Shown in pieces: positions 57,104 through 60,794 of a stretch of DNA of 64,000 nucleotides. Every line of letters starts with the position of its first letter. Position 1 is the first letter of the stretch. A model generated the notes under the pieces. It saw only the letters and a list, made by a program, of their open reading frames with translations. It searched no databases and was not told where the DNA came from. Made by a program: the position numbers and the translations under genes. Where the stretch lies: assembly GCF_057098645.1 (NCBI RefSeq), contig NZ_CM169472.1; one strand, 5' to 3'.

Positions 57104-58207
57104 TTACAAAGTTGCTGGCGTAAAGGCTCCGGTTTGTATTTCTTTAACCAGCTCACCCACGGTATATATTCTCCATCCTTCGACTTCGGCGGGAGTAAGG
57201 TTAACTGCAATTTTAAGGCCTGGCCATGCAGCTTCTACGGTTGCAATAATTTCATGTTCTGAGTTTTGAAGATCTAACCCAGGAACAGGAGGTTGAAAGC
57301 CTTTATGTTGCATCATATTAATATCACCATGCACTGATGGATCAGTCAGGTCATATATTTCATTCCAGGATTCTGCTTTTAATAACCCTTGTTGGGAACG
57401 TAAACGTTGAATGATAGCCATCTCAGCTTGGGTAACGAATATACCTTCGTGGAGGGGCTGTTTTCGATGGCAATCCTTGCACAGAACAAGAAGGTTTTCA
57501 TGGTGATTATCATATTTGATGCCATTTTTATGATGGACATGGCACAAGTTTTTGGCGGTTGATAAATTCACGCCACAATCATTACAAACATAATTGGCCT
57601 TTTCTCGTATTTCTTTAGATATTTCCTTCCAGTTTTCAACATACCCACTATTTGTTTTGTCATAGATACCCTTAGGCATATGACGAAAACAGGTACTATA
57701 ATCTGAAAAAAACTCATTTAATGAGAATGATTTAAAAATCTCTCTTTTTCGTTGTTTATCAATACTTCCTTTATAATTAAGTCGTTCGAGGCAATTCATA
57801 CATACCCGTAAATCAACATCCTGGCTCCGACCTGAACCATCATCAATTTCGAATAAACCATCTATGCGGTTAGTTGCATGATACCTTTCAAATCGATTTT
57901 TATGGCGCATTTCATCAAGAGTTCTGCACCAGGCAATATGAAAACGTTTTCCTTTTTCGCCATCTACGATAGCCGCATCATAACGCCCTGAATGGTCCCG
58001 AATATATAAAAGAACCTGGCGGCCATGATAAGAGATAAGCCCGCTACCAGGGTCAAGATCTTCGATACTAACTTCTTTACCCGTGGATAACTCAATATCT
58101 ATAGGATCAAAGTCAATAGGGGATTCATCCAGAAAAAAATCGACTCCTTCTGGTAACATTTTCTTCCCTAATTGAATAAGTTCTGAAAGGTCGATAGATA
58201 ATTTCAT
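57104..58207 (-). CDS. HNH endonuclease domain protein, candidate ZorE of a Zorya type II-like system
   Basis: 367-aa ORF with HNH motif CHVHHKNGIKYDNHHENLLVLCKDCHRK, 4 bp downstream of the MotB-like gene. Confidence 0.6.
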   Translation of the reverse strand: MKLSIDLSELIQLGKKMLPEGVDFFLDESPIDFDPIDIELSTGKEVSIEDLDPGSGLISYHGRQVLLYIRDHSGRYDAAIVDGEKGKRFHIAWCRTLDEMRHKNRFERYHATNRIDGLFEIDDGSGRSQDVDLRVCMNCLERLNYKGSIDKQRKREIFKSFSLNEFFSDYSTCFRHMPKGIYDKTNSGYVENWKEISKEIREKANYVCNDCGVNLSTAKNLCHVHHKNGIKYDNHHENLLVLCKDCHRKQPLHEGIFVTQAEMAIIQRLRSQQGLLKAESWNEIYDLTDPSVHGDINMMQHKGFQPPVPGLDLQNSEHEIIATVEAAWPGLKIAVNLTPAEVEGWRIYTVGELVKEIQTGAFTPATL

Positions 58208-58210
58208 CTC

Positions 58211-58918
58211 TTACTCCTGAATAATCTTTCTAATCTGCAACTCGGCATTTGTTACAACTTTGAAGGTGACACGACGAGAGCGATTAGGATCCTCCTTGCC
58301 GGTTTTATCAAGAATGGGATGTGCAGATGAATAACCTACTGCGGCAAATTTACTTTTAACCCATTGTTGGTGTGTCGCGATATTTTTTATGTCATAAACG
58401 TATTGTAATACTGCACGTGTACGACCTTGCGATAGTGCCATATTATTAAAATAAGCAATATCAGGATTCGTTGTTCCTGTCCAGTCAGTACTTGTGTGAC
58501 CTTCAATGCGGACTTCAGTAATATGTTCCTGATAATTATCTAGAACTTTTAGGTAGCGAGGAAAGAAATCGTCAAGAATGAGTTTAAACTTTGGTTTTAG
58601 CTCTGTGCTTCCTAAGCCAAATAAAACATCCGGTGATTTAAATCGAACCTCCAGAGTCTGTTTATCGATCTCTGCATCCCAGTCTTGTAAATCCTTTGCA
58701 AACTCAATATCCAGAGCATTATAAAGCTGTAACTGAGCATTCTCGTAGGCTACGGCAACTTCTTTAATTTTTTCTTTTTCAATACGTACGTAGTGCATAT
58801 AAGCAATAGATATGAACATAAAAACCATCATCAGCCCTGCCATTAGGTCTGACATGGATACCCAATGTTCATTATCTTGATCTTTTTTAGGTAATTGTTT
58901 CCCTATAATCTTATCCAT
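58211..58918 (-). CDS. MotB/OmpA-like protein, candidate ZorB
   Basis: 235 aa, single N-terminal TM helix with MotB-like aspartate (MSDLMAGLMMVFMF) and C-terminal OmpA-like peptidoglycan-binding region. Confidence 0.65.
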   Translation of the reverse strand: MDKIIGKQLPKKDQDNEHWVSMSDLMAGLMMVFMFISIAYMHYVRIEKEKIKEVAVAYENAQLQLYNALDIEFAKDLQDWDAEIDKQTLEVRFKSPDVLFGLGSTELKPKFKLILDDFFPRYLKVLDNYQEHITEVRIEGHTSTDWTGTTNPDIAYFNNMALSQGRTRAVLQYVYDIKNIATHQQWVKSKFAAVGYSSAHPILDKTGKEDPNRSRRVTFKVVTNAELQIRKIIQE

Positions 58919-58924
58919 GATCGA

Positions 58925-60577
58925 TTACCCGCGATGTTTATTAGCAGAAATTAATGCTTGTAACTGCCCCATAACTATTTGGTAATCTTTAATAAGTTTT
59001 TCATAGTTACCGACAAAACCTTTGCTGATTGAAAGCAGAGCATTACCTAATGATTGCATTTCACGGTTCATTTCACGTTCAGTTGCTTGCTCAAAAGCAT
59101 GTAACTGCTCGTTGATGGATAGAGCAAATTTTTCAATTGATTCTCTGACTTGAGAAGTCAGCCCTGCACTTGCCTTATCAAATGATGTCTGGATTGAATC
59201 AAACATATTATCGGCATTACTGGATAGTTGATGGTTAATCTTTTCACCAGTCTTACTGAACATATCAATCACATTCGTCGTATTTTGTTCCATATTTCTA
59301 TGCAATTCTTTCGAGTGCGACTCTAGTGATTTCAGGAATTCTTCACCACTTTGTTTCATTTCAGTAATTGTTTCACCTAACGTGCTGGTTAGGGTTTCGG
59401 AGGAATTGCTGACATCATGTGCCATCGAGGCAAATGCTTGTTGTGTTTGGGTAACCGATTGTCTGAATCCTTCGGTACCTTCATCCAGGGCAACGCGCAT
59501 TGAATCTGCATTAAGAAGTATTTGCTGGCTGGTTTGCTCAAGAGATGCACTAACATTTGCAGCTCCGGATTTCAGCAGTTCACCCACTTCAGCCATTTTG
59601 TTCTGTATTTCAGGTAATACGGTTGTAGCTTTATCGCGGATGGCGACAAAGGTTTCTAAATGGCGGGAGAGTTCGCTGATTTGATGTTGGTTCACCTGAA
59701 GCACTTCACGCAGTTCAGACATAGCCAGAGGAATTTCTTTACATTCTTCCCAAATCCCTGCAACCGCAGTTTTTGTTTCAACCAGGGACTCGACACTTTG
59801 TTGATATTGTTCTGACATCTGCTCAATTTGCGTTTTATAATTTCCCTGCCACTCAACAAGTTTTTTTACAGAGGCATCAAGAGCTTTAAAGTTTTCACCA
59901 AACTGTTCAGTTAAATTTTGATTAAAATCAATAATGACTTGTCGCAAAGCATCAATAATTTGTTCTGTAGCACCTTTTGCCATTAGATCTGCAAATTGTT
60001 CAAGTTGTTCCCAAAGCTTATTACTGAAATGAGTGTGATTAGCTAATTGTGCCTGCGAGGAATCGCTAATATCAGTACGTAGTAATTTTATTTGAGCAAT
60101 AAGAGAACCTTCACTATCACCGTTAATACCCGAGACTAATTTAGTCAGAGTCTGGTTCTGCTCTTTTAATTCATGATAGATATGTTCAGGTGTAACAGAT
60201 TCAGGGTTATTTTCTGCTAACGCACTTCGTTTATTGGCAAAAAAGAAAGCATCCATTCCATTAAATAAAATGGCAAAAAACATACCTACAATGCTTGTAA
60301 TGAATGCTGTTTTTAGGCCACCTAATAATACGGGGATGCTGGTATCAATACTTTCGGTATTAAAATTGAGTAAACCAATAATAATACCAATGAAAGTACC
60401 CAGAATACCTAATGCCCCCATTAAGGTTGGAGCATATTCTCTAAACTTACTATGTATATTTTTTTTGTCACACCACCACGCTGATAAAAATACGAATATA
60501 ACAGCCCAGATGAAAATATTGGTGATCAGTGTAGAGTCTATCGATTGAAACAACTGCTCAAAAAGCTGCGCTAACAT
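58925..60577 (-). CDS. MotA/TolQ/ExbB-like membrane protein with long coiled-coil tail, candidate ZorA
   Basis: N-terminal TM helices followed by about 400 aa of coiled-coil-like sequence; start assumed at MLAQLFEQ (alternative ATG at 60634). Confidence 0.65.
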   Translation of the reverse strand: MLAQLFEQLFQSIDSTLITNIFIWAVIFVFLSAWWCDKKNIHSKFREYAPTLMGALGILGTFIGIIIGLLNFNTESIDTSIPVLLGGLKTAFITSIVGMFFAILFNGMDAFFFANKRSALAENNPESVTPEHIYHELKEQNQTLTKLVSGINGDSEGSLIAQIKLLRTDISDSSQAQLANHTHFSNKLWEQLEQFADLMAKGATEQIIDALRQVIIDFNQNLTEQFGENFKALDASVKKLVEWQGNYKTQIEQMSEQYQQSVESLVETKTAVAGIWEECKEIPLAMSELREVLQVNQHQISELSRHLETFVAIRDKATTVLPEIQNKMAEVGELLKSGAANVSASLEQTSQQILLNADSMRVALDEGTEGFRQSVTQTQQAFASMAHDVSNSSETLTSTLGETITEMKQSGEEFLKSLESHSKELHRNMEQNTTNVIDMFSKTGEKINHQLSSNADNMFDSIQTSFDKASAGLTSQVRESIEKFALSINEQLHAFEQATEREMNREMQSLGNALLSISKGFVGNYEKLIKDYQIVMGQLQALISANKHRG

Positions 60578-60794
60578 TTTGATACCTGTGTAAATAATGG
60601 ATAGTTGTAATCGTTTAAAAAATAAACAAAACACACATAATTTATATGGTTAAGTTCGGTGTAGCGCTCATGATTGTAACAAGTTTTTTCGAGATATAAA
60701 TGATTTGTCTCATTTTTAGCGAGTTCATCGGGTTGAGCTTTTTTATGATGATAGTAACCTGTTACGAATTGTATCAAAGGAAGGCAGGTTGCTT

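What the first reader, a model, noticed from the sequence alone, without database searches (positions are those of the whole stretch)
57104..60790. MotA/MotB-like proton-channel pair fused in an operon with an HNH nuclease: Zorya type II-like defence module
Three co-directional, tightly packed genes (6 and 3 bp spacers) on the minus strand. The first is a MotA/ExbB-like membrane protein with a very long coiled-coil C-terminal tail. The second is a MotB-like protein with the conserved TM aspartate and an OmpA-like domain. The third is an HNH nuclease. A flagellar-stator-like pair coupled to a nuclease is the defining architecture of Zorya anti-phage systems, and the HNH partner corresponds to the type II arrangement. 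The module sits in an AT-rich island next to a tRNA-associated satellite prophage, a typical defence-island context. The assignment is by architecture only.
Basis: partly seen in the sequence, partly recalled or inferred. Interest (0 to 1): 0.8.

Follow-up and report, generated by a model that had tools for sequence, protein, structure and literature searches.

The report
Known E. coli type II Zorya

Summary
Three co-directional minus-strand genes lie 6 and 3 bp apart. zorA is 58925-60577 (550 aa from the ATG; the ORF reaches a GTG at 60634). zorB is 58211-58918 (235 aa) and zorE is 57104-58207 (367 aa). The interpretation also holds. All three pass NCBIfam's curated equivalog cut-offs for ZorA2, ZorB2 and ZorE, and all three hit the PADLOC type II Zorya models (E 7.8e-303, 2.2e-104, 6.6e-177). 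The 3.8 kb stretch is 100% identical to E. coli O145:H28 chromosomes, where RefSeq already names the genes zorA2/zorB2/zorE. It is present in 593 of 5426 complete E. coli genomes. Compared with E. coli ATCC 8739, whose system has been tested against phages, ZorA, ZorB and ZorE differ at 3, 1 and 2 residues. ZorB D24 and every ZorE residue tested by mutagenesis are conserved. The setting has also been published. druH of Druantia III lies divergently upstream, and a P4-like satellite sits at tRNA-Leu (leuX), in front of an older, immobilised defence island. Verdict: already known, low interest. The only uncharacterised item nearby is a 678 aa orphan protein at 53033-55069.

The parts
58925..60577 (-). 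zorA2: 550 aa. MotA/ExbB-like membrane domain (about residues 1-105) plus a ~445-residue helical cytoplasmic tail.
   Evidence: NCBIfam NF041792 ZorA2 equivalog, 1140.3 bits against a cut-off of 700. PADLOC ZorA2 E 7.8e-303. Pfam MotA_ExbB E 1.6e-6. PDB 8VVI ZorA E 7.3e-38. RefSeq WP_000880880.1. Three substitutions against ATCC 8739.
58211..58918 (-). zorB2: 235 aa. N-terminal transmembrane helix carrying D24, and a C-terminal OmpA-like peptidoglycan-binding domain.
   Evidence: NCBIfam NF041787 ZorB2, 443.8 bits against a cut-off of 400. PADLOC ZorB2 E 2.2e-104. Pfam OmpA E 3.8e-8. PDB 8VVI ZorB E 1.5e-52, with D24 aligned to D21 of the solved protein. One substitution against ATCC 8739.
57104..58207 (-). 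zorE: 367 aa soluble effector. N-terminal region, central zinc-finger HNH nuclease domain (C208/C211, H225-H226, N238, C243/C246, H247), and a C-terminal extension (about 276-367).
   Evidence: NCBIfam NF041791 ZorE, 696.1 bits against a cut-off of 600. PADLOC ZorE2 E 6.6e-177 over the full length; the shorter ZorE2 models end near residue 275. Motif read from the sequence. All 12 residues mutated in the ECOR19 study are conserved. Two substitutions against ATCC 8739.
60578..60788 (.). Divergent intergenic region between zorA2 and druH, presumably holding both promoters. Minus-strand sigma-70-like candidates at 60777-60748 and 60700-60673.
   Evidence: Consensus scan. The number of sites in the region is no higher than in shuffled sequence, so these are candidates only. 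The region is 99.4% identical to the ATCC 8739 stretch. PMC11890865 reports that the ATCC 8739 system works from its native promoter; the extent of that cloned promoter fragment was not checked here.
60789..64000 (+). druH (Druantia type III), 5' 1070 codons, cut by the window end. A neighbouring system reported to act in synergy with Zorya II; it is not a Zorya component.
   Evidence: PADLOC DruH3, 2429.7 bits, profile positions 1-1068 of 1117. RefSeq 'STY4851/ECs_5259 family protein', followed by a 2104 aa DEAD/DEAH helicase in the O145 genome. Synergy: PMC13192584.

Best explanation
This is a complete, intact type II Zorya anti-phage operon (zorA2-zorB2-zorE) in an Escherichia coli chromosome.

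Published model:
- Five ZorA and two ZorB subunits form an ion-driven, MotAB-like motor in the inner membrane.
- ZorB holds the ion-conducting aspartate (D24 here) and a peptidoglycan-binding domain, which is proposed to sense envelope disturbance when a phage injects.
- Ion flow then turns ZorA around the anchored ZorB.
- The signal travels down the long helical ZorA tail. The tail recruits and concentrates ZorE, an HNH nickase that damages phage and host DNA.

Shown here: the identity of the genes, their integrity, and conservation of the functional residues. Taken from published experiments on near-identical copies: the 5:2 assembly, peptidoglycan binding, nicking activity and phage protection. 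Still inferred in the literature: the trigger, and how the signal moves along the tail.
For: - Family membership: NCBIfam equivalogs above cut-off for all three proteins and PADLOC type II models at E 1e-104 to 1e-303.
- Domains: MotA_ExbB and OmpA; HNH motif read directly from the sequence.
- Solved relatives: PDB 8VVI, a type II ZorAB entry deposited with 5 ZorA and 2 ZorB chains, matches at 7.3e-38 and 1.5e-52, and ZorB D24 aligns with its D21 (described in PMC11890865).
- Identity to known copies: 100% DNA identity to O145:H28 chromosomes annotated zorA2/zorB2/zorE. Identity to the ATCC 8739 locus is 99.45% at the DNA level, with 3/550, 1/235 and 2/367 amino-acid differences.
- Published numbering fits: the ATCC 8739 constructs ZorB D24N, ZorA deletion 106-550 and ZorB deletion 45-235 match these protein lengths and D24.
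- All 12 ZorE residues mutated in the ECOR19 study (H90, E99, Y109, Y189, H226, K231, N234, H235, N238, L239, H247, H253) are present at the same positions.
- ZorE nickase activity and the recruitment model.
- General ZorAB motor mechanism, type I: PMC11946911.
Against: - Nothing in the sequence argues against the assignment.
- Pfam's HNH models do not reach significance on ZorE, and ZorE has no solved relative by sequence. The nuclease fold therefore rests on the motif, the family models and published biochemistry.
- Expression and activity in this particular strain were not tested, and the promoter candidates are no better than chance.
- The literature disagrees on whether Zorya acts directly or at a cost to the infected cell (PMC11890865 discussion, against PMC11946911).
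Confidence: 0.97

Rival explanations
1. The first two genes are an ordinary ExbB/ExbD, TolQ/TolR or MotA/MotB energy-transducing pair that happens to sit beside an unrelated HNH nuclease.
For: Pfam sees only the generic MotA_ExbB and OmpA domains. Weak hits to MotB, MotS and MotD models exist.
Against: The flagellar and OmpA-family models score 20-43 bits against cut-offs of 175-300 bits or more, whereas the ZorA2 and ZorB2 equivalogs pass theirs. ZorA carries a ~445-residue tail that ExbB, TolQ and MotA lack. No TonB, TolA or flagellar gene is adjacent. The three genes travel together to a different tRNA site in ATCC 8739.
Confidence: 0.01
2. The operon is a silent or decaying remnant in an old, immobilised island rather than a working defence.
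For: The flanking DNA holds gene fragments: a BrxL C-terminal remnant and a nanM fragment. Downstream ARMADA-region genes are frameshifted in the O145 genome. No promoter could be called with confidence.
Against: All three reading frames are full length and lack frameshifts. They are identical to proteins annotated as intact in many genomes. They differ at only 6 of 1152 residues from a system shown to work from its native promoter, and the upstream region is 99.4% identical (PMC11890865).
Confidence: 0.03
3. In this genome ZorE mainly serves the neighbouring Druantia III system as an extra nuclease, and ZorAB is dispensable for some phages. On this reading the functional unit is larger than the three genes flagged.
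For: druH lies divergently 211 bp upstream. ZorE has the C-terminal extension typical of Druantia-associated ZorE variants: the full-length PADLOC model fits to residue 363 while the short models end near 275 (PMC13192584). That preprint reports ZorAB-independent use of ZorE against phage Bas37.
Against: This adds to the main explanation rather than replacing it. The same study shows that standalone Zorya II defence against T3 needs ZorAB. DruE lies beyond the window end, so its integrity in this strain is unknown. The source is a preprint.
Confidence: 0.3

Closest known systems
Type II Zorya of E. coli ATCC 8739 (NC_010468.1 4265907-4269380), tested against phages in PMC11890865; original description attributed to Doron et al. 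2018
   Same: Same three genes in the same order, with the same 6 and 3 bp spacers and the same protein lengths (550/235/367 aa). DNA identity is 99.45% including the upstream region. There are 3, 1 and 2 amino-acid differences (ZorA D169E, Q220E, S470G; ZorB L65I; ZorE L7I, T366K). None of these is at D24 of ZorB, in the HNH motif or among the 12 mutagenised ZorE residues. The divergent druH neighbour and the nanM fragment next to zorE are also shared.
   Different: Chromosomal site. ATCC 8739 carries the array in an element at tRNA-Phe near cadC. Here it lies in the tRNA-Leu (leuX) island next to ahr.
Type II Zorya of E. coli ECOR19, together with Druantia III (PMC13192584; synergy study)
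   Same: The ZorE numbering and all 12 mutagenised residues match. The Zorya II / Druantia III juxtaposition is the same.
   Different: The ECOR19 sequence itself was not available for comparison here.
Type II ZorAB of Sulfuricurvum kujiense (PDB 8VVI, cryo-EM 5:2 complex)
   Same: Homologous over the ZorA membrane domain and the first ~280 tail residues (E 7.3e-38), and over nearly the whole of ZorB (E 1.5e-52). The ion-path aspartate aligns.
   Different: The S. kujiense ZorA is much shorter (378 against 550 aa), so the tail here is longer.
Type I Zorya (ZorABCD; PDB 8QYH/8QYK/8QYY, 8VVN; PMC11946911)
   Same: Same ZorAB motor principle: a MotAB-like 5:2 complex, a peptidoglycan-binding ZorB and a long ZorA tail.
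   Different: Only weak similarity (ZorA E 4e-5 to 4e-4; ZorB E 4e-6). The effectors are ZorC and ZorD rather than ZorE. The ZorA1 and ZorB1 models score far below the type II models.
Flagellar stator MotAB and the ExbBD/TolQR motors
   Same: Shared MotA_ExbB channel domain, the transmembrane aspartate on the B subunit and an OmpA-like anchor.
   Different: They have no long cytoplasmic tail and no nuclease partner. Scores are well below family cut-offs.

Membership tests
Zorya type II (ZorA2-ZorB2-ZorE) | ZorA: MotA/ExbB-like membrane domain followed by a long helical cytoplasmic tail | tested here: met
   NF041792, 1140.3 bits against a cut-off of 700. PADLOC ZorA2 7.8e-303. Pfam MotA_ExbB 1.6e-6. 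Three hydrophobic segments, then a 445-residue proline-poor tail. Matches 8VVI ZorA.
Zorya type II (ZorA2-ZorB2-ZorE) | ZorB: MotB-like transmembrane helix with the ion-conducting aspartate, plus a peptidoglycan-binding OmpA-like domain | tested here: met
   NF041787, 443.8 bits against a cut-off of 400. Pfam OmpA 3.8e-8. D24 aligns with D21 of the solved type II ZorB and is the residue mutated (D24N) in the ATCC 8739 system.
Zorya type II (ZorA2-ZorB2-ZorE) | ZorE: HNH nuclease as the third gene, with no ZorC/ZorD or ZorF/ZorG | tested here: met
   NF041791, 696.1 bits against a cut-off of 600. PADLOC ZorE2 6.6e-177. CxxC...HH...N...CxxCH motif. The neighbours are DruH, a nanM fragment and a restriction endonuclease, not ZorC, D, F or G. 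Pfam HNH alone is not significant.
Zorya type II (ZorA2-ZorB2-ZorE) | Operon arrangement zorA-zorB-zorE, co-directional and tightly spaced | tested here: met
   Gaps of 6 and 3 bp on the minus strand. The arrangement is identical in ATCC 8739.
Zorya type II (ZorA2-ZorB2-ZorE) | ZorA5:ZorB2 assembly | not testable with these tools
   Inferred from homology to 8VVI, which is deposited with 5 and 2 chains (PMC11890865). No multimer prediction is available here.
Zorya type II (ZorA2-ZorB2-ZorE) | Protection against phage infection that depends on all three genes | not testable with these tools
   Published for the ATCC 8739 system, which differs at 6 of 1152 residues (PMC11890865), and for ECOR19 (PMC13192584).
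Canonical ExbBD/TolQR/MotAB motors | Scores above the family cut-offs, and an adjacent TonB, TolA or flagellar partner | tested here: not met
   MotB, MotS and MotD models score 27-40 bits against cut-offs of 259-300. No partner gene lies within 52-64 kb.
Zorya type I / type III | ZorC+ZorD (type I) or ZorF+ZorG (type III) downstream of zorAB | tested here: not met
   The third gene is ZorE. ZorA1, ZorB1, ZorA3 and ZorB3 models score far lower than the type II models.

The most novel reading that the evidence does not exclude
The Zorya genes themselves leave no room for a novel reading. The most novel possibility the evidence does not exclude lies in the same island. The 678 aa orphan at 53033-55069 matches no family in any library searched, is found only in Enterobacterales, and has invariant D477/D483/E490-x-K492. 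It might be an undescribed nuclease-type defence gene that works alongside the Zorya II / Druantia III array and the phosphorothioate-dependent endonuclease.
Probability: 0.12. Interest if true: 0.4.

Novelty: already known. Interest (0 to 1): 0.07.

Why it matters
For discovery it matters little. This is a textbook copy of a defence system that is named in RefSeq, present in about 11% of complete E. coli genomes, solved by cryo-EM in a homologue, and dissected genetically in near-identical copies. It does serve as a positive control: a reader working from raw sequence alone identified a Zorya type II operon and its island context correctly. The locus is also a clean example of the published pattern in which a P4-like satellite integrates at leuX in front of an older, immobilised Zorya-Druantia island.

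Tried and rejected
- I looked for the ATCC 8739 Zorya at its leuX site and it is not there. It sits at tRNA-Phe, as Bell et al. describe.
- Doron et al. 2018 (PMC6387622) is not held in the library. The original discovery is therefore cited only through later papers.
- A PDB sequence search with ZorE found nothing, and Pfam HNH models were not significant on it.
- The promoter and terminator scan gave no more sites than shuffled sequence and no terminator after zorE.
- For the 678 aa orphan, Pfam, PADLOC, NCBIfam, PHROGs and PDB all returned nothing. An AlphaFold2 model from a 7-sequence alignment was too poor to use (pLDDT 50.8), so I did not run a fold search.
- No complete E. coli genome in the collection carries this exact version of the P4-like satellite (best coverage 72%). 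The source strain was not identified.
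Full report
**Observation.** The ORF scan shows three co-directional minus-strand reading frames. They are 58925-60634 (569 aa from a GTG), 58211-58918 (235 aa) and 57104-58207 (367 aa), separated by 6 and 3 bp. The most likely start of the first gene is the ATG at 60577, giving 550 aa. RefSeq annotates that start on identical DNA, and both ZorA2 family models begin at residue 20 of the longer ORF. 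The finding's upper coordinate (60790) therefore takes in the 211 bp intergenic region shared with a divergent gene. GC content is 0.36-0.40 over 57-61 kb, against roughly 0.50-0.57 in the core genes of the window.

**What the proteins are.**
- All three pass NCBIfam's curated equivalog cut-offs: ZorA2 1140.3 bits (cut-off 700), ZorB2 443.8 (400) and ZorE 696.1 (600).
- PADLOC's type II Zorya models match at E 7.8e-303, 2.2e-104 and 6.6e-177. Type I and III models score far lower.
- Pfam finds MotA_ExbB in ZorA (residues 51-110, E 1.6e-6) and OmpA in ZorB (99-213, E 3.8e-8).
- ZorA has three hydrophobic segments within residues 12-114. They are followed by about 445 residues rich in E, S, L and Q with only four prolines, which fits the long helical tail.
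- ZorB has a single hydrophobic helix (20-44) containing D24.
- ZorE shows C208xxC211, H225-H226, N238 and C243xxC246-H247, a zinc-finger HNH signature. Pfam's generic HNH models are not significant on it (E 0.081) and no solved structure matches by sequence.
- Against the PDB, ZorA and ZorB match the Sulfuricurvum kujiense type II ZorAB entry 8VVI at 7.3e-38 and 1.5e-52. That entry is deposited with five ZorA and two ZorB chains. ZorB D24 aligns with its D21, the residue described as the ion-path aspartate (PMC11890865).

**Identity to known copies.** The 3.8 kb stretch occurs in 593 of 5426 complete E. coli genomes. It is 100% identical in a series of O145:H28 chromosomes, where RefSeq names the genes zorA2, zorB2 and zorE. 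I located the E. coli ATCC 8739 system at NC_010468.1 4265907-4269380. This is the system whose anti-phage activity, D24N mutant, tail and peptidoglycan-domain deletions and ZorE nickase activity are reported in PMC11890865. The window is 99.45% identical to it over 3798 bp, upstream region included. The proteins differ at 3 of 550, 1 of 235 and 2 of 367 positions. None of these is at ZorB D24, in the HNH motif or among the mutagenised ZorE residues. The published construct boundaries (ZorA deletion 106-550, ZorB deletion 45-235, ZorB D24N) fit these protein lengths exactly. All twelve ZorE residues mutated in the ECOR19 study (PMC13192584) are present at the same numbering.

**Rivals.**
- A canonical ExbBD/TolQR/MotAB pair is excluded. 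Those models score 20-43 bits against cut-offs of 175 or more. No TonB, TolA or flagellar partner is nearby. The three genes move together to a different tRNA site in ATCC 8739.
- A decayed remnant is unlikely. The frames are intact and near-identical to a system that works from its native promoter. Expression in this strain remains untested, and the promoter scan is uninformative.
- A wider functional unit is plausible but is an addition, not an alternative. druH of Druantia type III starts at 60789 on the other strand (PADLOC 2429.7 bits) and runs off the window. A 2026 preprint reports synergy between the two systems, including ZorAB-independent use of ZorE against one phage. The ZorE here has the C-terminal extension (about 276-367) that the preprint associates with Druantia-linked variants. 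The full-length PADLOC ZorE model fits to residue 363, whereas the short models stop near 275.

**Mechanism.** The published model runs as follows.
1. ZorA5B2 is an ion-driven, MotAB-like motor in the inner membrane.
2. The ZorB peptidoglycan-binding domain is proposed to sense wall disturbance at phage entry.
3. The channel opens, ion flow through D24 turns ZorA, and the tail passes the signal into the cytoplasm.
4. The tail recruits ZorE, whose local concentration then allows nicking of DNA.

This rests on PMC11890865 and, for the general ZorAB principle in type I, on PMC11946911. What I showed here is gene identity, integrity and residue conservation. The assembly, binding, nicking and protection are published for near-identical or homologous proteins. 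The trigger and the transmission along the tail remain inferences in those papers. The papers also disagree on whether defence is direct or comes at a cost to the infected cell.

**Context.** Window 22665-38007 and 52321-64000 match the O145 RM9872 chromosome at 99.99% and 99.95%. The 14.3 kb between them (38008-52320) is a P4-like satellite prophage inserted at tRNA-Leu(CAA) (37923-38007). It contains:
- an integrase (38160-39446);
- a type II restriction-modification pair as cargo (39912-40730 and 40768-42021);
- psu and an ogr/delta-like gene;
- an IS21 insertion (45835-48253);
- a P4-type primase (49452-51785).

It is bounded by an imperfect 23-24 bp repeat of the tRNA 3' end. Between the satellite and zorE lie a 678 aa orphan protein, a BrxL C-terminal remnant, a phosphorothioate-DNA-binding HNH restriction endonuclease and a nanM fragment.

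Bell et al. (bioRxiv 10.1101/2025.09.15.676423) describe this layout: a Zorya II / Druantia III / ARMADA II array at tRNA-Leu next to ahr. In their account the array is immobilised, and a P4-like satellite integrated later in front of it.

**Side look.** The 678 aa protein (53033-55069) has no match in Pfam, PADLOC, NCBIfam, PHROGs or the PDB. Its relatives are confined to Enterobacterales, down to 40% identity. A seven-sequence alignment keeps D477, D483 and E490-L-K492 invariant, which is suggestive of a PD-(D/E)xK nuclease core. The AlphaFold2 model was too weak to use (pLDDT 50.8), so I recorded this as an open item.

**Verdict.** The feature is an already known, named and experimentally characterised system. 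Interest is low.

Noticed in passing
window 53033-55069 (+): A 678 aa orphan protein (RefSeq WP_000416999.1, 'hypothetical') lies between the P4-like satellite and the restriction endonuclease. It has no hit in Pfam, PADLOC, NCBIfam, PHROGs or the PDB. Homologues occur only in Enterobacterales (40-99% identity), and one is labelled 'NERD domain-containing' in UniRef. D477, D483 and E490-x-K492 are invariant, a possible PD-(D/E)xK nuclease core. The AF2 model was poor (pLDDT 50.8). This is a candidate uncharacterised defence gene.
   Followed up: partly
window 60789-64000 (+): druH of Druantia type III (PADLOC 2429.7 bits), divergent from zorA and cut by the window end. In the O145 genome it is followed by a 2104 aa helicase (probably DruE) and further large helicase genes, which are probably the ARMADA II array described by Bell et al.
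   Followed up: partly
window 38008-52320: A P4-like satellite prophage at tRNA-Leu(CAA)/leuX. It has an integrase, a type II restriction-modification cargo (REase 39912-40730, cytosine-5 methyltransferase 40768-42021, GC about 0.35), psu, an ogr/delta-like gene, an IS21 insertion (istA/istB 45835-48253) and a P4-type primase (49452-51785). It is flanked by an imperfect 23-24 bp repeat (37984-38007 and 52321-52343). No complete E. coli genome in the collection has this exact version (best coverage 72%).
   Followed up: partly
window 55692-56564 (-): A phosphorothioated-DNA-binding HNH restriction endonuclease (NCBIfam NF045808, 437.7 bits against a cut-off of 180). It looks like a type IV enzyme, with no dnd or ssp modification genes visible nearby.
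   Followed up: no
window 55468-55647 (-): A 59-codon ORF that matches the last 58 positions of the BrxL profile (PADLOC E 1.7e-19). It looks like a vestige of a lost BREX system. RefSeq marks it as a partial 'peptidase' pseudogene.
   Followed up: partly
window 56632-56880 (-): A nanM (N-acetylneuraminate epimerase) fragment pseudogene just downstream of zorE. The same fragment sits next to zorE in ATCC 8739 at a different tRNA site, so it travels with the Zorya module.
   Followed up: no
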